Part shown: one piece after another, positions 1 to 44,751 of the stretch | Layout: each line of letters begins with the position of its first letter | Position numbering within the stretch: the first letter of the stretch is position 1 | IMG/VR virus record: IMGVR_UViG_3300045988_055685 | Location: 1 to 44,751 of that record | Strand: one strand, 5' to 3' | Length of the DNA stretch: 44,751 bases | Source: a virus | The notes under the pieces: model-generated | What the model was told of the DNA's origin: nothing | The model's input: only the letters and a program-made list of their open reading frames with translations | Databases searched by the model: none | Position numbers and translations under genes: made by a program

Positions 1-128
1 CGCAGCGCGTTCAGCCGCAGCGCGTTCGGCAGCCGCATGTTCAGCCGCAGCGCGTTCGGCAGCCGCATGTTCAGCCGCAGCGCGTTCGGCAGCCGCATGT
101 TCAGCCGCAGCACGTTCAGTGGCAGCAT
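1..128. repeat. Tandem 30-bp repeat GTTCAGCCGCAGCGCGTTCGGCAGCCGCAT, 3 exact copies plus 1 degenerate; encodes (AAAERAAAEH)n on the minus strand
   Basis: Read directly: units at 9-38, 39-68, 69-98, degenerate 99-128. The same repeat recurs at 44665-44751. Confidence 0.95.
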
Positions 129-798
129 GATCCGACAATAGCAGCCCTGCCCCGAAAATGGTTTTCCCGTTTTCCCTCTGTGCGTCCAGCGCGGATATTT
201 GTATGCAGTCTTTTCTCCACACCTTAAAATCGATACCGTATTTACTGTACCTCTGCATCATTGCCGCAGTCACAACATGATCAGGATAGTCGTATTTCGG
301 CAGCGTCCGCACCTTTTCTTTCCGCAGTTCTTCGACCACGCTATTAACAGCCGCGCCCAATGTCGGCGCCGTCTGCATTACAACATCATCGCCGAGATTT
401 GTCACAAATGCCGTTTGGACGATTGCGCCGTTCTCGTACTCAATTCCTGCATTGCAAATAATATGATTCATCCGCATGCAGACCTTTTTGCCTGATAGAG
501 CAGTAAGCGACGGTGCAAACAGAAAAAATGAGATCTCCTTGTCGAGATAAAACTCGCATATCTTCACCAAAATAGAAAACGGCGGATTGTCCAGCACAAC
601 ACATCCGTCCGGATACGCGAATTTTTCATAGTCCCCGCCCGGCCAAAAAGGCCTGACAATCGTCTTCGGATCGATGTTGTATTCTGCGCACGCCCAGTCT
701 TTTACCGCATCATATACAAGTGGCGGCGTGTAACAGTCATCTGTTGTTTTCTTCGGTTTGAACTTTTCTATAAATTCTTCATACGTCTTGCTTTTCAT
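1..798 (-). CDS. DNA N6-adenine (or N4-cytosine) methyltransferase, N-terminal 266 codons; ORF runs off the window start and continues at 44751..44608
   Basis: My own translation from ATG 798-796 (RBS GGAGGAAAC): MKSKTYEEFIEKFKPKKTTDDCYTPPLVYDAVKDW...GCVVLDNPPFSILVKICEF... It carries an NPPF (D/N-PP-Y/F) catalytic motif. No stop occurs before position 1, and the frame enters the AAAERAAAEH repeat. This ORF is not in the supplied track because it is open at the edge. Confidence 0.65.
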   Translation of the reverse strand, partial: MKSKTYEEFIEKFKPKKTTDDCYTPPLVYDAVKDWACAEYNIDPKTIVRPFWPGGDYEKFAYPDGCVVLDNPPFSILVKICEFYLDKEISFFLFAPSLTALSGKKVCMRMNHIICNAGIEYENGAIVQTAFVTNLGDDVVMQTAPTLGAAVNSVVEELRKEKVRTLPKYDYPDHVVTAAMMQRYSKYGIDFKVWRKDCIQISALDAQRENGKTIFGAGLLLSDHAATERAAAEHAAAERAAAEHAAAERAAAEHAAAERAAAERAA

Positions 799-961: not shown

Positions 962-1477
962 ATATACCCGCTTATCGCGGGTATCGCCTGCCCTGCACAC
1001 ACTACGCTAAGGAAAGGGATTTTCACCTCTCTTTGGCATGTAATTTACAGGCACATACATGGTGCGTGCTGCGCAGGTGCAGGCTTCTTCTCTTATGCGA
1101 GCTATCGCGCCGCATACGTCCGGCTGTCGGAGGGGAGCTGCCCCGCACCTCCCAGCTTCGCCAACGAATAGGAGGCGTTCCACACTGGGAGCTTCACATG
1201 TGATCGCGCTTGCCCCGTGGCCTTTGGTGCTTCGGCTTTCGCCTCGCCCCGCGTGGGCGAAGATCAGAAACAGTTTGCCCCGCCGCCATCATTCAGGCTT
1301 AGGGACGTATCCCCGCGTCCCCTACGTCAGTACCCCGCGTGGAACGCAGGGCTTCGGGGATCGCAGGGCGGTGCTTGTAATTCTGTCTTGTGCTGGCACA
1401 AGGCGTATAAGTCAGCACCGGATTGCTTGTTCTACCCCGCTGCCCTCGTGCGGGCTTAGGGACGTATGGTGCGCGGA

Positions 1478-1709: not shown

Positions 1710-1784
1710 TGGAGCACCGCACGAGACTTGAACTCGCCCGCCCAGCTTGGAAGGCTGGTATGCTTCCGACTACATCAGCGGTGC
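1710..1784 (-). tRNA. tRNA-Gly (anticodon UCC), CCA encoded
   Basis: Hand-folded 75 nt: GCACCGC TG ATGT AGTCGGAA GCAT A CCAGC CTTCCAA GCTGG GCGG GCGAG TTCAAGT CTCGT GCGGTGC T CCA. All four stems pair, and the discriminator is U. Confidence 0.85.
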
Positions 1785-7591: not shown

Positions 7592-8399
7592 CCGCGCCCC
7601 TCCTTGCCTCAAGCTGCTGCTTCACCCGATCGCGCCACTGCGTTTCCCATTCTGACAACTGCTGGCCGGATATCCCCTGCGCTGCGGGCTTCTTGCCGTT
7701 CTCAATCCTGTCCCAGACGATCCCGCGCCAGTTGTTTGCCATGCTCAGGCGTATCACATCGCACACCGCCCGTTCTCCGTGCGCCCCGATCTGGTTCTCT
7801 ATCTCCGCAAGCAGGCTTTTCAGGCCGACCGGCTTATACGCCTCGCGGCGCTCCTGCTTGTACGCCAGCCATTCACGGACAGTTTCGGCAACAGGCTCCG
7901 AAAAGCGTTCGGAGAGTTCGGGCGCGCCCTCTTTCTTAGCTTTCTTGCTTTCTTCTCTTTCTTTTCTTTCTTTCATTGTTGCCCTTTGAGTGCCCTCGGT
8001 CTGCCCGCTGTCTGTCCTCGGTCTGTCCTCGGTCTGCCCTTGGTCTGCCATTTGTTTGCCCTCGGTCTGCCCTTGGGTTGCCCCGTCCGATTGATACCGT
8101 TCGTATTCGTTGACGGTGATAACGGTCATGTGCCGGTTGCTCCAAACAGCGATCTCTCCGGTTTTTTTTAGCCGGTCCAGGCTCGTCCGCACCTCTTTCA
8201 CACTAAGGCCGGTCTGCTCTGCCAAACCGGCAAGAGAGGCTGCGATCTGGCCGCGCTCTATCGTCTTTTCACCTATATCGCGCGGCTCATAGTTCGCATT
8301 CAGCAAAAGGTTAATCCAAAGCAGGAGGGTTTTCGGCTCTTTGTACCACCGCCAATTCGCAAGCGAACGGTGCAGCTTTATGTAACCGTTTTCCAGCAC
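7584..8399 (-). CDS. Phage replisome organizer / replication initiator (N-terminal wHTH, DnaD-like C-terminal region)
   Basis: MLENGYIKLHRSLANWRWYKEPKTLLLWINLLLNANY... is the remembered replisome-organizer N-terminal signature. The central GQTE repeat linker is encoded by DNA iterons. Confidence 0.7.
   Translation of the reverse strand: MLENGYIKLHRSLANWRWYKEPKTLLLWINLLLNANYEPRDIGEKTIERGQIAASLAGLAEQTGLSVKEVRTSLDRLKKTGEIAVWSNRHMTVITVNEYERYQSDGATQGQTEGKQMADQGQTEDRPRTDSGQTEGTQRATMKERKEREESKKAKKEGAPELSERFSEPVAETVREWLAYKQERREAYKPVGLKSLLAEIENQIGAHGERAVCDVIRLSMANNWRGIVWDRIENGKKPAAQGISGQQLSEWETQWRDRVKQQLEARRGAGG
7990..8085. repeat. Iteron array (CCTYGGTCTG, ~11-bp phasing, 5-6 copies) inside the replisome organizer gene; candidate ori
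   Basis: Copies at 7994-8003, 8016-8025, 8027-8036, 8038-8047, 8060-8069, and degenerate 8071-8080. They are preceded by a ~50-bp pyrimidine tract (7925-7975). Confidence 0.55.
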
Positions 8400-15134: not shown

Positions 15135-15788
15135 TTGAGCCAACTTTCAGAACGCATTCTTTCTGCTATCCAAGAAAAGAATTTATCTTATGGAGATTTA
15201 TCCGAAGCAACAGGAATCCCCAAGTCTGCTTTGCAACGATACGCTACGGGAGAAACTACTAAAATCCCTTTAGATAGGGTGCAGGCGATCGCTGCGGCTC
15301 TCAATATTAATACTGAATGGCTATTGGGATGGGAGCAAAGCAGTTTCTCCCTTGCTGAAAGCAATAAATCCCAGGGGTTGACATGTGTCCAATGTGCTGG
15401 ACCGGTAGCGGCCCATTTTGACGCAACACCGAACGAGGAGCATGAATATAGAGCGATCCCCCAAGAATGGTTGGGGCATCGTAAGCCAGAAGACTTTTTC
15501 ATTGCTATTGTGGATGGTGAATCTATGTACCCCATGTATTTAGACGGAGACGAAATTCTTTGTTTGAGATGTAATGATATGGGGTATTCCGGTCGAGTTG
15601 GCATAATGCTTTTCGGAGATGGAGAGGCAACCTTGAAAAAGATTGAATATAGGCTTGGTGAGGATTGGATTGATTTGGTGCCTATTAATCCCGAATATGC
15701 TACAAAAAGAATATCCGGCGCAGACCTTGATCAATGCCGTGTTGTTGGGCGAGTTGTAAGGGTTTTTCGTAGTGTTGATGAAATATAA
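15135..15788 (+). CDS. CI/LexA-like repressor (XRE HTH plus S24 peptidase domain)
   Basis: N-terminal HTH LSYGDLSEATGIPKSALQRYATG. C-terminal GESMYPMYLDGDEIL...ATLKKI carries the Ser/Lys dyad signature. TTG start sits behind AAAGGAGGTG. Confidence 0.85.
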   Translation: MSQLSERILSAIQEKNLSYGDLSEATGIPKSALQRYATGETTKIPLDRVQAIAAALNINTEWLLGWEQSSFSLAESNKSQGLTCVQCAGPVAAHFDATPNEEHEYRAIPQEWLGHRKPEDFFIAIVDGESMYPMYLDGDEILCLRCNDMGYSGRVGIMLFGDGEATLKKIEYRLGEDWIDLVPINPEYATKRISGADLDQCRVVGRVVRVFRSVDEI

Positions 15789-16490: not shown

Positions 16491-16691
16491 ATGACCGAAC
16501 CACGCATGATCGTAATATGCTCCAAATGCGGAACGCCCTGCCATACTCTCGGATACGATAAAGCTACCTGCTCATTCAAATACGACTACTCCAAGCCTTG
16601 CGGAAAATGCGGCGCTGCCGATTGGGTAGCGCATGAGGTCGGGCGAAACTGGAAAACCGGACTTTGGGAGAAAACAGAGAGGCACATTTGA
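16491..16691 (+). CDS. Small zinc-ribbon protein
   Basis: CSKCGTPC...CGKCG. Confidence 0.55.
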   Translation: MTEPRMIVICSKCGTPCHTLGYDKATCSFKYDYSKPCGKCGAADWVAHEVGRNWKTGLWEKTERHI

Positions 16692-16716
16692 CAAATAAAC
16701 ATAGAGCGGTTATAAT
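16688..16716 (+). promoter_or_regulatory. Consensus promoter of module-1 sRNA
   Basis: TTGACA (16688-93), 17 nt, TATAAT (16711-16). Confidence 0.65.
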
Positions 16717-16722
16717 AGACAT

Positions 16723-16818
16723 AGAAAAAGGGCGCAGCCGGTTGACGGTTATTCCCAAAGATTTAAGTCAGAAAATGACCGCTATCATTTGGACGTGAGG
16801 GCGGTCATTTTCTTTTGC
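16723..16818 (+). ncRNA. Candidate ~90-nt sRNA (module 1)
   Basis: 5' arm, then hairpin GAAAATGACCGC / GCGGTCATTTTC (16771-82 / 16801-12) with loop TATCATTTGGACGTGAGG, then TTTTCTTTT. Confidence 0.5.
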
Positions 16819-16891
16819 ATATCTGAACAATCAGACCAGCAAATGCCACAAGCAACATGAGAAGCTGAAAAAGCTCCGAGTATGTAACCAT
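16805..16891 (-). CDS. 28-aa hydrophobic peptide, Hol-Tox-like (candidate type I toxin)
   Basis: RBS GGGGAGGTGG. MVTYSELFQLLMLLVAFAGLIVQICKRK. The stop lies inside the hairpin stem. Confidence 0.5.
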   Translation of the reverse strand: MVTYSELFQLLMLLVAFAGLIVQICKRK

Positions 16892-17068
16892 AGCACCACC
16901 TCCCCTTTATGGGTTCGGTGGGAATAACCGCCAACCGCTGGCACGGCTGCGCCTTATCCACAGGATAACACAACAGCTTACAAAATACAAGAAAAATCCC
17001 GCCCCTGCGCTACCAACACAGAGACGGGATATGAGGGTAGAAACATTTGACCGATGCTCTACCCTCTT

Positions 17069-17097
17069 ATTATAGCTAAGATAGGAGGAAAACGCAA
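17069..17097 (-). promoter_or_regulatory. Minus-strand promoter overlapping the integrase RBS/start
   Basis: TTGCGT (17097-92), 17 nt, TATAAT (17074-69). It is followed by hairpin GAGGGTAGA..TCTACCCTC and a hairpin plus T-run at 16991-17028. Confidence 0.45.
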
Positions 17098-18197
17098 TGG
17101 CAAAAAGAAAAGACCCAGGCACATCGGACGGATATTTTCGCCATACCTGGACATTCGAGGGAAAGCGATATTCTGTTCGCGCCAAAGATGAAAAAGATTT
17201 ATGGCGTAAGGTCGCGGAAAAGCAACGGCTTTTGGAAAGTGGCATGATTACCACAACCGAGAACACGCCTGTAAAGAAGTGGTTTTCGGACTATTTGGAA
17301 ACATACAAGCGCGCATCTGTAACGTCCCAAACTTATGAGCAGCTTGTTGCATACTGTAGAAATTATATTTTCCCTGCGATTGGAAATACGCGAATTAAGG
17401 ATGTCAAACCTATTGACTTGCAGCGCATTATGAACGGATGCGCGGGCGGTTCAAGCAGTCAAGCAAACAAGTTAAGAAACCTTATTCGCGGCGCATTTAA
17501 ACAGGCCAGAATTGATCGTGTCATAATCTACGATCCCGCCGAAGCGCTGCAACTACCGGAAACCAAAAGCGGGACACACCGCGCTATCACCACAAATGAA
17601 AGGAAACACATTTTAGAGGTGTGTGAATCGCACCGTGCAGGTCTTTGGGTTCTGTTTATGTTGTACACCGGTGCGCGACCGTCGGAAACGCGTGCAGCGC
17701 TTTGGCAGGATATCGATTTCGACCGCCGTATTATCACGTTACATAGCTCAAAAACCGACTTTGGAGATCGGCGCGTACCGTGTCCTGATGTCCTGCACTC
17801 GCGTCTAAGCGCTGCGCAAGGCGAAGGGTATATATTCACCCAACCCACTACGGGGAAACCTCACACCAAAACATCTATGAGGCAGATGTGGGAAACATTC
17901 TGTCGTGCTGTAGATGTAAATATGGGCGCGAAAACATTTCGCGGCGCTGTTGTGCCAGAAACTTCGGTAATCGCTGACGATCTTACGCCATATTGCATGC
18001 GACATACTTACGCAACTGATTTGCAAACCGCAGGCGTTCCAATCAATGTTGCACGCGAATTATTGGGGCATAAAACGATAGATATGACATCCAGAATCTA
18101 TACACACCTTTCCGACAAAGCGTTTACAGATGCCGCCGAAAAGATTCTGCATTTCGAACGACAACAGGATTTAGGAAAAATATGTCGAATCGGTTAA
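17097..18197 (+). CDS. int: Tyrosine recombinase / phage integrase
   Basis: GARPSE...CMRHTYATDLQTAGVPINVARELLGHKTIDMTSRIYTH carries the R..HxxR..Y catalytic pattern. Confidence 0.9.
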   Translation: MAKRKDPGTSDGYFRHTWTFEGKRYSVRAKDEKDLWRKVAEKQRLLESGMITTTENTPVKKWFSDYLETYKRASVTSQTYEQLVAYCRNYIFPAIGNTRIKDVKPIDLQRIMNGCAGGSSSQANKLRNLIRGAFKQARIDRVIIYDPAEALQLPETKSGTHRAITTNERKHILEVCESHRAGLWVLFMLYTGARPSETRAALWQDIDFDRRIITLHSSKTDFGDRRVPCPDVLHSRLSAAQGEGYIFTQPTTGKPHTKTSMRQMWETFCRAVDVNMGAKTFRGAVVPETSVIADDLTPYCMRHTYATDLQTAGVPINVARELLGHKTIDMTSRIYTHLSDKAFTDAAEKILHFERQQDLGKICRIG

Positions 18198-22582: not shown

Positions 22583-22618
22583 CAAAACAAAAAGCCCCAC
22601 CTTGACACAGGCGGGGCT
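22583..22618 (-). terminator. Intrinsic terminator between module 2 and the endolysin RBS
   Basis: Minus strand reads AAGCCCCGCCTGTGTCAAGGTGGGGCTTTTTGTTTT. Confidence 0.6.
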
Positions 22619-22629
22619 TGTGGTATAAT
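22602..22629 (+). promoter_or_regulatory. Consensus promoter of module-2 sRNA
   Basis: TTGACA (22602-07), 16 nt, TGgTATAAT (TATAAT at 22624-29). Confidence 0.65.
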
Positions 22630-22635
22630 ATGAAC

Positions 22636-22720
22636 ATAAAGAGGCGCTGTCGGCAGACGGCTGACCCAATTACACAGTTAAAGTAACCGCTTCATTTGGT
22701 CGTGAGGGCGGTTACTTTGC
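22636..22720 (+). ncRNA. Candidate sRNA (module 2); may read through to the plus-strand terminator at 22884-22906
   Basis: 5' arm GAGGCGCTGTCGGCAGACGGCTGACCC, then the conserved-loop hairpin. The T-run after the hairpin is weak. Confidence 0.45.
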
Positions 22721-22786
22721 ATATGTAACAAAAATGTGTAACAAGATTGCTGCACATATTGAAATCCTTGCGAATCTCAAGCCCAT
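22712..22786 (-). CDS. 24-aa hydrophobic peptide (candidate type I toxin)
   Basis: RBS GGGGTGGTG. MGLRFARISICAAILLHIFVTYAK. The stop lies inside the hairpin stem. Confidence 0.4.
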   Translation of the reverse strand: MGLRFARISICAAILLHIFVTYAK

Positions 22787-22850
22787 ATGCACCACCCCTT
22801 TCTCAAGGAGTGATCAACCGCCCGCCGCTGGGAACGACAGCGCCCGACAT

Positions 22851-22880
22851 ATTATACCATCGCACGCCGCGCTATGTCAA
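22851..22880 (-). promoter_or_regulatory. Promoter of module-2 peptide mRNA
   Basis: TTGACA (22880-75), 18 nt, TGgTATAAT (TATAAT at 22856-51). Confidence 0.55.
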
Positions 22881-22883
22881 TTT

Positions 22884-22906
22884 GCCGCCTTTGGGCGGCT
22901 TTTTTA
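22884..22906 (+). terminator. Plus-strand-oriented terminator overlapping the holin stop codon
   Basis: GCCGCC tttg GGCGGC TTTTTTATTT. Confidence 0.55.
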
Positions 22907-35069: not shown

Positions 35070-35097
35070 TTGACATTGGCAGCACGCATGATATAAT
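35070..35097 (+). promoter_or_regulatory. Consensus promoter of module-3 sRNA
   Basis: TTGACA (35070-75), 16 nt, TATAAT (35092-97). Confidence 0.65.
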
Positions 35098-35103
35098 ATA
35101 GAT

Positions 35104-35192
35104 ACAAAGGGCGCAGTCGGTAGACGGTTAGCCCCATGAAGCATTAGAAGTAGCCGCTTCATTTGGACGTGAGGGCGGCTACTTCTTTTTAT
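35104..35192 (+). ncRNA. Candidate ~90-nt sRNA (module 3)
   Basis: Arm, then the conserved-loop hairpin, then TTTTTATT. A second plus-strand terminator CCCCC ttat GGGGG TTTTTTT lies at 35309-29. Confidence 0.5.
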
Positions 35193-35250
35193 TGTCTAAA
35201 ATACGCTCGATAAGTACGAGTACAATGACAAGTATTACGAGATATTCCAT
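35179..35250 (-). CDS. 23-aa hydrophobic peptide with KKK tail (candidate type I toxin)
   Basis: RBS GGGGGCGG. MEYLVILVIVLVLIERILDNKKK. The stop lies inside the hairpin stem. Confidence 0.45.
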   Translation of the reverse strand: MEYLVILVIVLVLIERILDNKKK

Positions 35251-35329
35251 ACAACCGCCCCCTTTCAGGGGCAAGACTTAACCGCCTACCGTTGCACGAC
35301 TGCGCCCGCCCCCTTATGGGGGTTTTTTT

Positions 35330-35359
35330 ATTATATCATAGCGCGTTGTCCAGTGTCAA
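35330..35359 (-). promoter_or_regulatory. Promoter of module-3 peptide mRNA
   Basis: TTGACA (35359-54), 18 nt, TATAAT (35335-30). Confidence 0.55.
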
Positions 35360-44607: not shown

Positions 44608-44751
44608 TTATCCAAGGCTTGCAATTATGTCGCGCTCCCTATCGGATAGCATCCACCTATGCGCCGCAGCGCGTTCAGCCGCAGCGCGTTCGGCAGCCGC
44701 ATGTTCAGCCGCAGCGCGTTCGGCAGCCGCATGTTCAGCCGCAGCGCGTTC
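44608..44751 (-). CDS. C-terminal end of the methyltransferase gene that starts at 798 (wraps around the contig junction)
   Basis: The frame gives ...AAAERAAAEHAAAERAAAHRWMLSDRERDIIASLG, with stop TAA at 44610-44608. The codon phase matches the 1-798 segment when 87 nt are treated as overlap (44,664 is divisible by 3). Confidence 0.65.
   Translation of the reverse strand, partial: ERAAAEHAAAERAAAEHAAAERAAAERAAAHRWMLSDRERDIIASLG
44665..44751. repeat. 87-nt terminal direct repeat identical to 1-87
   Basis: Base-by-base comparison of both ends. Confidence 0.95.

What the first reader, a model, noticed from the sequence alone, without database searches (positions are those of the whole stretch)
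16688..17097. Module 1 of a three-copy family: consensus-promoter ~90-nt hairpin RNA convergent with a 28-aa hydrophobic peptide ORF (type I toxin-antitoxin-like), abutting int
On the plus strand, TTGACA-17-TATAAT (16688-16716) is followed by GGGCGCAGCCGGTTGACGGTTATTCCC. Next comes a 12-bp hairpin (16771-82 / 16801-12) with an 18-nt loop TATCATTTGGACGTGAGG and a T-rich tail. No ORF is present. On the minus strand, RBS GGGGAGGTGG and ATG 16891 encode MVTYSELFQLLMLLVAFAGLIVQICKRK. Its stop lies inside the hairpin stem, so the two transcripts overlap at their 3' ends. This is the layout of the Bacillus prophage type I TA loci (txpA/RatA, bsrG/SR4). The peptide mRNA leader (reverse complement of 16920-53) is complementary to its own 3' tail (reverse complement of 16730-56). 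That resembles the 5'-3' fold-back seen in hok-type toxin mRNAs. Across the three copies (here, 22583-22906 and 35070-35359) the loop is nearly invariant. The stems differ by compensatory changes (ATGACC/GGTCAT, GTAACC/GGTTAC, GTAGCC/GGCTAC), which argues for a selected RNA structure. The peptide resembles the Hol-Tox small-toxin pattern (M-x-T-Y-E-x-L-x-L-M..F..LIV..KK) as I remember it. In this copy there is no second plus-strand terminator before int. There is also a minus-strand promoter (17097-17069) overlapping the int RBS/start, followed by a terminator hairpin (16991-17028). Integrase expression and this module may therefore be coupled by antisense transcription.
Basis: partly seen in the sequence, partly recalled or inferred. 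Interest (0 to 1): 0.85.

Follow-up and report, generated by a model that had tools for sequence, protein, structure and literature searches.

The report
Phage toxin–antisense RNA cassette family
This gut-Clostridia phage carries three copies of a small cassette, a 23-28-residue membrane peptide gene facing a ~95-nt antisense RNA, which has the hallmarks of a type I toxin-antitoxin system and belongs to an undescribed, mosaic family of a well-known kind.

Summary
Three about 300-nt modules (16688-16990, 22602-22880, 35070-35359) each have a perfect plus-strand promoter, a ~95-nt non-coding RNA ending in a long hairpin, and a convergent minus-strand ORF of 23-28 hydrophobic residues whose stop codon lies in the hairpin's 3' arm.

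More than 50 distinct relatives were found in Oscillospirales phages, genomes and one plasmid. In every complete copy checked, the ORF keeps a strong SD, the fixed stop and a position 3 > 1 > 2 substitution pattern, so it is coding.

The 5'-3' fold-back covaries. It is more stable on the peptide-mRNA strand in 23 of 23 modules, because its G·U pairs become A·C on the other strand. The peptide mRNA must therefore read through the central hairpin.

- The "invariant 18-nt loop" is really a 4-bp upper stem plus a UUGG apical loop. This part is hypervariable across the family and between tandem paralogues.
- Hol_Tox/TxpA membership is not met for the window peptide.
- Coupling to int is not supported. 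A sister phage has an AbiD gene in the same slot and keeps the flanking hairpin.

Best reading: a type I toxin-antitoxin cassette, closest to bsrG/SR4 and txpA/RatA. It is absent from Rfam and unannotated. No transcript or toxicity data exist.

The parts
16688..16716 (+). Module 1: promoter of the antisense sRNA (TTGACA-17-TATAAT)
   Evidence: 12/12 match to consensus. The position is conserved in relatives.
16722..16820 (+). Module 1: ~98-nt non-coding antisense RNA (putative antitoxin). It comprises a 5' stem-loop in segment A, a spacer and a long terminator hairpin with a U-tract.
   Evidence: Covariance-model hit of 97.5 bits. MFE -36.2 kcal/mol, z = -4.53.
16731..16757 (.). Segment A. On the minus strand (A') it forms the 3' half of the long-range helix of the peptide mRNA.
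16771..16812 (.). Central hairpin: 12-bp lower stem, 4-bp variable upper stem, apical loop UUGGAC. It acts as the sRNA terminator, and the peptide mRNA reads through it.
   Evidence: 95% of cells paired and 10 of 16 pairs with compensatory change in 50 distinct sequences. More stable on the plus strand in 23/23 modules.
16805..16891 (-). Module 1 peptide ORF, 28 aa: MVTYSELFQLLMLLVAFAGLIVQICKRK. The stop codon TGA lies in the 3' arm of the hairpin.
   Evidence: Codon-position bias 340/209/464 across its class.
16896..16905 (-). Shine-Dalgarno sequence GGGGAGGTGG, held in a local hairpin
16920..16953 (.). Segment B. On the minus strand (B') it is the 5' end of the peptide mRNA and pairs with A'.
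16962..16990 (-). Candidate promoter of the peptide mRNA (TTGTAT-17-TATCCT). It is weaker than the sRNA promoter.
   Evidence: Read directly from the sequence. The position is conserved in L013, L032 and L033. The consensus scan does not call it.
22602..22629 (+). Module 2: sRNA promoter. Its -35 sits in the loop of a minus-strand terminator at 22619-22592.
   Evidence: 12/12 match with TG extension; terminator also called.
22634..22727 (+). Module 2: antisense sRNA
   Evidence: Covariance-model hit of 87.3 bits.
22712..22786 (-). Module 2 peptide ORF, 24 aa: MGLRFARISICAAILLHIFVTYAK. It lies between the holin gene (23200-22904) and the CHAP endolysin gene (to 21810), on the same strand as both.
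22851..22880 (-). Module 2: promoter of the peptide mRNA
   Evidence: 12/12 match with TG extension.
35070..35097 (+). Module 3: sRNA promoter
   Evidence: 12/12 match with TG extension.
35101..35194 (+). Module 3: antisense sRNA
   Evidence: Covariance-model hit of 96.1 bits.
35179..35250 (-). Module 3 peptide ORF, 23 aa: MEYLVILVIVLVLIERILDNKKK
35330..35359 (-). Module 3: promoter of the peptide mRNA. The hairpin at 35308-35323 lies just downstream of it. That hairpin would be a plus-strand terminator and a 5' hairpin of the mRNA.

Best explanation
Each module is an autonomous, promoter-to-promoter type I toxin-antitoxin-like cassette carried as phage cargo.

The minus strand gives a ~230-nt mRNA for a 23-28-residue, single-helix membrane peptide with a Lys/Arg tail. 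This mRNA starts directly in segment B', reads through the central hairpin and ends with A'. Its two ends therefore form a ~27-35-bp long-range helix. Its strong SD is held in a local hairpin, which should keep it stable and poorly translated.

The plus strand gives an abundant ~95-nt sRNA from a consensus promoter. It ends at the same hairpin. The U-tract of that terminator is the reverse complement of the peptide's Lys codons and stop codon.

The sRNA is fully complementary to the 3' ~95 nt of the mRNA. I infer the following steps:
1. First contact is made through the apical UUGG loop, a YUNR-type recognition loop.
2. Pairing spreads through the variable upper stem into A', in competition with B'.
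3. The long duplex is cleaved, RNase III-style as in txpA/RatA and bsrG/SR4, so the peptide is not made while the sRNA is present.

What is shown here is the anatomy, the coding status of the ORF, the covariation of the RNA structure and the strand on which it acts. The transcripts, the toxicity, the decay pathway and the biological role are inferred. Candidate roles are prophage retention or exclusion of other phages.
For: - Three copies against 0.04 expected by chance.
- 12/12 consensus promoters on the sRNA strand of all three modules, and on the peptide strand of modules 2 and 3.
- In all 34 complete modules examined from unrelated contigs, the ORF has a strong SD at the right distance and a stop codon in the 3 nt right after GAGGGCGG. 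Tandem paralogues keep the same stop position relative to the hairpin.
- Substitutions fall as position 3 > 1 > 2 in all three peptide classes (464/340/209, 73/46/34, 119/81/48). Close pairs differ by synonymous changes only.
- The full structure (outer and inner long-range helix plus hairpin) is 91.7% paired, against 82.2% in shuffles and 31-47% when partners are slid. 20 of 39 pairs changed on both sides. Covariation score 0.343 against 0.182, reached by 0 of 500 shuffles.
- The long-range helix is more stable on the minus strand in 23/23 modules (-48.3 vs -40.0 kcal/mol), with 2-7 G·U pairs each. One wobble is conserved in 20 of 23.
- The hairpin is more stable on the plus strand in 23/23 modules.
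- Module 1 mRNA has MFE -108.3 kcal/mol, z = -9.25, and folds into the fold-back plus an SD hairpin.
- SD plus AUG have a mean unpaired probability of only 0.21-0.24.
- The published bsrG mRNA has the same logic. It has a long helix P1 whose 3' half, together with the terminator stem-loop, is the SR4 target; decay depends on RNase III (PMC3834814).
- Cassette behaviour: a sister phage carries AbiD in the module 1 slot, and sub-modules recombine as a mosaic.
Against: - There is no RNA-seq, no mapping of 5' or 3' ends, and no toxicity assay.
- The peptide-mRNA promoter of module 1 is weak and the scan does not call it.
- In modules 2 and 3 both promoters are equally perfect. That is not the usual arrangement of a stronger antitoxin promoter.
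- The window peptides match no toxin family in Pfam, NCBIfam or PADLOC at threshold.
- Read-through of the central hairpin by the minus-strand polymerase is inferred from covariation and strand asymmetry. It has not been observed.
- An SR4-like translational switch is not supported. SD accessibility is the same in the free and 3'-blocked states (0.24 vs 0.21, p = 0.086).
- The 23 to 50 sequences are related to one another, so shuffle statistics overstate independence.
Confidence: 0.67

Rival explanations
1. The cassette encodes a non-toxic small membrane protein under antisense control, a phage 'moron' with a specific role. That role could be superinfection exclusion or modulation of holin and lysis timing. 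The sRNA would be a regulator rather than an antitoxin.
For: Module 2 and its class sit between holin and endolysin, co-oriented with them, in two unrelated lysis cassettes. These are Hol44 + CHAP in the window and Phage_holin_1 + Amidase_3 in L043, L059 and L029. Some predicted type I toxins are not toxic when tested, for example YhzE-2 in Fozo 2010 (PMC2887945). The peptides match no toxin family at threshold.
Against: The same RNA scaffold carries at least five unrelated peptide classes. It also occurs in bacterial chromosomes as tandem arrays of 2-5 copies, and next to housekeeping genes in L018 and L024. That pattern fits selfish TA cassettes better than one dedicated phage function. The elaborate silencing (SD hairpin, fold-back, perfect antisense promoter) is typical of genes whose product is harmful.
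Confidence: 0.2
2. The plus-strand RNA is the main functional product, for example a structured regulatory RNA or a read-through leader controlling int. The small ORF would be incidental.
For: The plus-strand promoter is a perfect consensus in all copies. Module 1 has no second plus-strand terminator before int. The module 2 sRNA has a poor U-tract and is followed by a plus-strand terminator at 22884-22899, beyond the module.
Against: The ORF, its SD and its stop are kept in every complete relative, with a coding substitution pattern. The long-range helix is selected on the minus strand, not the plus strand. Only one of the three modules is near int, and a sister phage has AbiD there instead. 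There is no Rfam match.
Confidence: 0.05
3. The module is a DNA-level repeat, a MITE-like element whose segments A and B are terminal inverted repeats. The RNA features would be by-products.
For: It is about 300 nt long, has inverted repeats near both ends, occurs in several copies per genome in intergenic sites, and shows presence/absence polymorphism.
Against: The inverted repeat carries 2-7 G·T positions. These pair as G·U on one strand only, in 23/23 modules, which a DNA-binding site would not require. The conserved promoters lie outside the repeats. The cassette edges coincide with the promoters. I saw no target-site duplications.
Confidence: 0.03

Closest known systems
bsrG/SR4 (Bacillus subtilis SPβ prophage type I TA; Jahn & Brantl 2013, PMC3834814)
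   Same: Both are prophage-borne and encode a small hydrophobic peptide. The antisense RNA is convergent and complementary to the 3' end of the toxin mRNA. The toxin mRNA has a long helix formed by distant 5' and 3' segments. The 3' half of that helix, plus the terminator stem-loop, is the antitoxin target. The SD is partly sequestered, and YUNR-type loops are proposed for first contact.
   Different: There is no sequence or Rfam similarity. Here the sRNA is shorter (~95 vs ~180 nt). The stop codon sits inside the shared hairpin. Modelling shows no SR4-like change in SD pairing. The peptides are 23-28 aa against 38 aa. The host is an Oscillospirales anaerobe.
txpA/RatA and the TxpA ('holin-like toxin', Pfam Hol_Tox) family (Fozo 2010, PMC2887945)
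   Same: Both have a 3'-overlapping convergent antisense RNA on a prophage-like element. The module 1 peptide class begins M-V-T-Y-(S/E)-E-L, like TxpA's M-S-T-Y-E-S-L. A profile of that class aligns to the TxpA N-terminus with 72% probability (the TxpA sequence was supplied from memory).
   Different: The window peptide gives no Hol_Tox hit. Only 3 of 11 class members hit it (best E = 2.4e-4), and the one scored individually reaches 15.9 bits against a gathering score of 23.3. The peptide is half the length of TxpA. Modules 2 and 3 carry unrelated peptides on the same RNA scaffold. No Rfam family, including the known antitoxin RNAs, matched.
hok/sok (plasmid R1) and AapA1/IsoA1 (Helicobacter pylori)
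   Same: In all of these, 5'-3' long-distance pairing locks the full-length toxin mRNA.
   Different: In those systems the antisense RNA targets the 5' leader or translation-initiation region, and 3' trimming activates the mRNA. Here the antisense RNA covers the 3' partner of the fold-back itself. There is no Hok or AapA similarity.
Clostridioides difficile prophage type I TAs (CD0977.1-RCd11 and others; PMC7699646, PMC5961336)
   Same: These are type I TA modules in clostridial prophages, proposed to stabilise mobile elements.
   Different: From my own knowledge, the C. difficile toxins are about 50 aa. I did not align these peptides or RNAs with the C. difficile systems. The present family is in Oscillospirales and is not mentioned in the literature I searched.

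Membership tests
Type I toxin-antitoxin system (generic) | Small (<60 aa) hydrophobic, genuinely coding peptide gene | tested here: met
   ORFs of 22-33 aa with a strong SD in all 34 complete modules examined. Substitutions fall as position 3 > 1 > 2, and close pairs differ only synonymously.
Type I toxin-antitoxin system (generic) | Cis-encoded antisense RNA with its own promoter and terminator, overlapping the toxin mRNA | tested here: met
   This holds at sequence level only. Evidence is the 12/12 promoters, the covarying terminator hairpin and a covariance model that recovers 57 copies. The transcripts themselves have not been observed.
Type I toxin-antitoxin system (generic) | The peptide is toxic on expression and is neutralised by the RNA | not testable with these tools
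   This needs expression assays in a Clostridia host or a surrogate.
TxpA / Hol_Tox (Pfam PF16935) | The peptide scores above the Pfam gathering threshold (23.3 bits) | tested here: not met
   The window peptide gives no hit at E <= 10. 3 of 11 same-class peptides hit, best E = 2.4e-4. The one scored individually reaches 15.9 bits. hhalign against TxpA gives 72% probability over 17 aligned columns.
TxpA/RatA, bsrG/SR4 and other Rfam antitoxin RNA families | The antisense RNA matches the family's covariance model | tested here: not met
   No Rfam 15 family reaches its gathering score in any module. For module 1 the best sub-threshold hit is ctRNA_p42d, 22.1 bits against a gathering score of 50.
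bsrG/SR4-type mechanism | A long-range helix in the toxin mRNA whose 3' strand is the antitoxin target | tested here: met
   The helix is predicted in all three window mRNAs. It covaries. It is favoured on the mRNA strand in 23/23 modules.
bsrG/SR4-type mechanism | Antitoxin binding increases SD sequestration | tested here: inconclusive
   Partition-function model: SD plus AUG unpaired probability is 0.24 when free and 0.21 when the 3' end is blocked, p = 0.086. The SD is already mostly paired.
hok/sok | The antisense RNA targets the 5' leader, a mok-like reading frame is present, and the toxin is a Hok-family peptide | tested here: not met
   The sRNA lies at the 3' end of the mRNA. The Pfam scan of the peptides returned no Hok-family match. 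Only the fold-back principle is shared.
Fst/par (RNA I/RNA II) | Direct repeats that give 5' complementarity, plus a shared bidirectional terminator | tested here: not met
   Segments A and B are inverted repeats, not direct ones. The two RNAs therefore have similar 5' ends, not complementary ones. The hairpin is favoured as a terminator on the plus strand only.

The most novel reading that the evidence does not exclude
The family is a recombining RNA chassis made of three interchangeable parts: the promoter plus segment A, the hairpin top, and the peptide ORF. The hypervariable upper stem and loop would act as an address code that decides which sRNA silences which mRNA.

Tandem chromosomal paralogues would diversify the code to stay independent of one another. 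This phage instead keeps one code on three different peptides. A single pool of sRNA would then gate three membrane peptides at once, including one embedded between holin and endolysin. That would tie prophage state to killing, exclusion or lysis.
Probability: 0.2. Interest if true: 0.75.

Novelty: new member of a known kind. Interest (0 to 1): 0.55.

Why it matters
Type I TA systems are poorly charted outside Bacilli, Enterobacteria, Helicobacter and C. difficile. This would add a family for Oscillospirales (Agathobaculum, Butyricicoccus, Anaerotruncus), which are abundant gut commensals, and for their phages.

The small ORFs and the sRNA are currently unannotated. One example is the RefSeq plasmid of A. 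colihominis VE303-02, a strain of a defined therapeutic consortium.

The family also gives an unusually clear natural data set for several questions:
- how a toxin mRNA fold-back and an antisense recognition hairpin evolve, with strand-specific G·U evidence;
- mosaic swapping of hairpin tops and peptides;
- dual use of the same bases as Lys codons and as a terminator U-tract;
- how phages load such cassettes into cargo slots that otherwise hold Abi genes.

The mechanism class itself is not new.

Tried and rejected
- SR4-like translational switch. I blocked the 3' ~95 nt in partition-function folding. This did not change SD accessibility significantly, so I dropped it as a claimed step.
- Anti-SD role for the C-rich side of the hairpin loop. 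Inspection by eye gave 8-9 bp for module 3 but no consistent pairing for modules 1 and 2, so I dropped it.
- Known RNA family. Rfam at gathering score over the whole window, and with permissive E-values on module 1, gave only chance-level ctRNA, DicF and AgrB hits.
- Known toxin family. Pfam, NCBIfam and PADLOC gave nothing at threshold.
- Large protein databases. The search for homologous proteins refuses queries under 40 aa, so they could not be searched with the peptides.
- Cultured-phage relatives. Nothing was found in INPHARED with megablast, blastn or tblastn.
- Plasmids. There was one unannotated hit.
- Coupling to int through a minus-strand promoter at 17097-17069. Its -35 matches only 3/6 and the scan does not call it. 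The region is conserved backbone in a phage that lacks the module.
- MITE reading. I rejected it on strand asymmetry.
- Metagenome scan. I did not use it, because the viral and genome collections already gave more than 50 distinct copies.
- One genome hit (L021, Deltaproteobacteria MAG) has no stop codon, ORF or scaffold. I treated it as a chance match.
Full report
**1. Observation**

The window is a ~44.7-kb phage genome whose two ends repeat each other. Its recognisable genes include:
- a CI-like repressor (15135-15788);
- an integrase (17097-18197);
- a holin (23200-22904);
- a CHAP endolysin;
- a 936-aa ORF at 34984-32174 with no Pfam match, possibly the tape measure;
- a Gp15-like gene.

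The 20-nt core TCATTTGGNCGTGAGGGCGG occurs three times, at 16785, 22692 and 35159. Chance expectation is 0.04. An alignment of the three ~300-nt modules shows the shared architecture. A covariance model finds no fourth copy.

The promoter scan gives perfect 12/12 sigma-70-type promoters for the plus-strand RNA in all three modules. It gives the same for the minus-strand peptide mRNA in modules 2 and 3. The peptide-mRNA promoter of module 1 is weaker: TTGTAT-17-TATCCT at 16990-16962. The scan does not call it, but its position is conserved in relatives.

**2. Relatives**

An exact search with the core found 12 IMG/VR loci and 26 genome loci. The named genome hits are mostly Agathobaculum, Butyricicoccus, Anaerotruncus, Anaeromassilibacillus and Oscillospiraceae MAGs. 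A second search anchored on segment A only, so unbiased with respect to the hairpin, added more. Model R1 then recovered 57 copies, of which 50 are distinct.

There is no match in cultured-phage records. One complete plasmid of Anaerotruncus colihominis VE303-02 carries two tandem modules with no annotated feature over them.

**3. The small ORF is a gene**

In all 34 complete modules examined:
- the three bases right after GAGGGCGG are the complement of a stop codon (TCA, TTA or CTA);
- an in-frame start 22-33 codons upstream is preceded by a strong SD such as AAAGGGGG or GGAGG.

Tandem paralogues with other hairpin tops keep the stop at the same position relative to the hairpin.

The peptides fall into at least five unrelated classes:
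- MVTY(S/E)EL...KRK, 28 aa;
- MEY/MDY...KKK, 22-24 aa;
- MG.K...INAK, 24 aa;
- MVELL...IKK;
- MSMELL...KRK.

All are a single hydrophobic helix with a basic C-terminus. Within each of the three classes tested, substitutions fall as codon position 3 > 1 > 2 (464/340/209, 73/46/34, 119/81/48). Near-identical pairs differ only synonymously.

The terminator U-tract of the plus-strand RNA is the reverse complement of the Lys/Arg codons, so the same bases serve both functions. This can be read directly from the sequences.

**4. RNA structure and strand**

RNAalifold on 23 distinct constructs predicts the inner long-range helix and the hairpin. Fourteen of the 30 predicted pairs show compensatory change.

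Adding the outer helix by hand gives these figures:
- 91.7% of cells paired, against 82.2% in shuffles and 31-47% when partners are slid;
- 20 of 39 pairs changed on both sides;
- covariation score 0.343 against 0.182, reached by 0 of 500 shuffles.

The helix contains 2-7 G·U pairs per module, and one wobble is conserved in 20 of 23. As a result it is more stable on the minus strand in 23 of 23 modules, with means of -48.3 and -40.0 kcal/mol.

The hairpin shows the opposite bias. It is more stable on the plus strand in 23 of 23 modules, -20.4 against -16.4 kcal/mol. Because the hairpin top is nearly the same in all of these sequences, that second comparison is not 23 independent tests.

For module 1, folding gives:
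- peptide-mRNA sense, -108.3 kcal/mol, z = -9.25, with the 5'-3' fold-back and a local SD hairpin;
- the same interval on the plus strand, -95.8 kcal/mol, z = -7.89;
- the ~98-nt sRNA, -36.2 kcal/mol, z = -4.53.

I conclude that the fold-back is selected in the peptide mRNA. That mRNA must therefore read through the central hairpin to A'. Consistent with this, module 2 has a canonical minus-strand terminator just beyond A', at 22619-22592.

**5. The 'invariant loop'**

On the plus strand the 18 nt fold into a 4-bp upper stem and a UUGGNC apical loop. Across 50 distinct copies all four upper-stem pairs show compensatory change.

When copies are collected through segment A, the hairpin top is hypervariable. 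Only UUGG-like apical bases and a G-rich 3' side recur.

Tandem paralogues in one genome (L018 with 4 copies; L009, L004, L016, L020 and L067) keep the same peptide and the same A and B segments but carry different hairpin tops.

Orthologous modules in 96%-identical phages differ as a block in the spacer and hairpin top only (window against L047). Others share the hairpin but carry a different version of the ORF (window against L002).

The three window copies happen to share one class. They have 20-25 nt of near-perfect mutual complementarity at the hairpin, so cross-recognition between them is plausible. That is inference.

**6. Context**

Module 1 spans exactly the interval between the outer edges of its two promoters. 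A sister phage (L012) is 95-96% identical on both sides. In the same slot it carries a 295-aa AbiD/Abi_2 gene instead: Pfam E = 4e-47, PADLOC E = 4.5e-85.

The minus-strand hairpin at 17030-16996 and the int leader are retained in L012. They therefore belong to the backbone, not to the module, and the proposed coupling to int is not supported.

Module 2 and its class lie between holin and endolysin in two unrelated lysis cassettes. Module 3 lies next to the 936-aa ORF mentioned above. The module in L014 lies beside a weak tape-measure match, E = 3e-6 and below the Pfam cut-off. These are typical positions for phage cargo genes.

**7. Mechanism**

My best explanation has confidence ~0.67. It is a type I toxin-antitoxin cassette in which:
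- the full-length peptide mRNA is locked by end-to-end pairing and local SD sequestration, with an unpaired probability of 0.21-0.24 for SD plus AUG;
- the ~95-nt sRNA pairs with the mRNA's 3' end;
- pairing starts at the YUNR-type apical loop, invades A' and creates a long duplex that is then cleaved.

This parallels the published bsrG/SR4 logic of helix P1, terminator stem-loop and RNase III-dependent decay (PMC3834814).

A second SR4-like effect, extra SD sequestration on binding, was tested in silico and is not supported (p = 0.086).

Rival readings are:
- a regulated but non-toxic membrane protein (~0.2);
- an RNA-centred function (~0.05);
- a MITE-like repeat (~0.03).

**8. Comparison and novelty**

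The family works like bsrG/SR4 and txpA/RatA in its 3' overlap, prophage location and long-range helix. It shares the fold-back principle with hok/sok. It is not a demonstrable member of any of them:
- there is no Rfam hit;
- the Hol_Tox threshold is not met;
- the resemblance to TxpA is limited to the N-terminal MxTYExL motif, at 72% hhalign probability against a TxpA sequence I supplied from memory.

Fozo 2010 reports that the few annotated TxpA-family members (8 of 118) were labelled 'holin-like toxins', and that TxpA-like sequences occur in Clostridiales. A distant relationship for the module 1 class therefore remains possible.

Literature searches found nothing on type I TA in Oscillospirales or on this RNA.

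Verdict: a real, well-supported and apparently undescribed family of a known kind, with interesting modular evolution. Interest 0.55.

Noticed in passing
window 1307-1372 (-): Rfam DUF3800-VIII RNA (RF03075), 57.7 bits against a gathering score of 40.2. This is a candidate structured RNA of unknown function in this phage.
   Followed up: no
window 1710-1784 (-): A phage-encoded tRNA-Gly (anticodon TCC), about 340 nt from the DUF3800-VIII RNA.
   Followed up: partly
window 1-147 and 44635-44751: The window ends repeat each other: 1-87 is identical to 44665-44751. The ends consist of 15/30-nt periodic repeats (CGCAGCGCGTTCAGC...). This suggests a circular or terminally redundant assembly joined inside a repetitive coding region.
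   Followed up: no
window 7980-8089: Seven head-to-tail copies of an 11-nt unit (TGCCCTCGGTC-like). Its function is unknown.
   Followed up: no
L012 6629-7516 (-), equivalent to window 16692-16988: A sister phage, 95-96% identical on both flanks, carries an AbiD/Abi_2 abortive-infection gene in the slot occupied by module 1 in the window. The interval between the Zn-ribbon gene and int is therefore a cargo and defence hotspot.
   Followed up: yes
window 22602-22880; L043 1963-3382; L059 686-2091; L029 1369-2424: Modules of the MG..K peptide class sit between holin and endolysin, co-oriented with them, in two unrelated lysis cassettes (Hol44 + CHAP; Phage_holin_1 + Amidase_3). In the window, a minus-strand terminator at 22619-22592 lies just upstream of the endolysin and holds the sRNA -35 in its loop. 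A role in lysis control is possible.
   Followed up: partly
window 16996-17030 (-): A 16-pair terminator-like hairpin on the minus strand lies between int and module 1. It is conserved in the sister phage that lacks the module. It may shield the cargo slot from antisense read-through, or it may be part of the int leader.
   Followed up: partly
L067 (NZ_CP094683.1, about 49360-48590; locus 1467-1960): The complete plasmid of the cultured strain Anaerotruncus colihominis VE303-02 carries two tandem modules with different hairpin tops. Their peptides are MVELLLAILLVVAITEAVKYIKK and MEYLIVLVILLIVVDSVLHNKKR. Neither module is annotated. This strain would be a tractable experimental system.
   Followed up: partly
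L018 2887-4351 (-): A chromosomal tandem array of four modules in a Clostridiales isolate genome (MGYG-HGUT-00086). The MVTY-type peptides are nearly identical but each copy has a different hairpin top.
   Followed up: partly
window 16805-16820, 22712-22722, 35179-35192: The same bases are used twice. The Lys/Arg codons and stop codon at the peptide's C-terminus (AAA AGA AAA TGA and similar) are the reverse complement of the sRNA terminator's 3' arm and U-tract. Peptide classes ending in ...AK give a much shorter U-tract (TTTGCAT), so their sRNAs may terminate poorly.
   Followed up: partly
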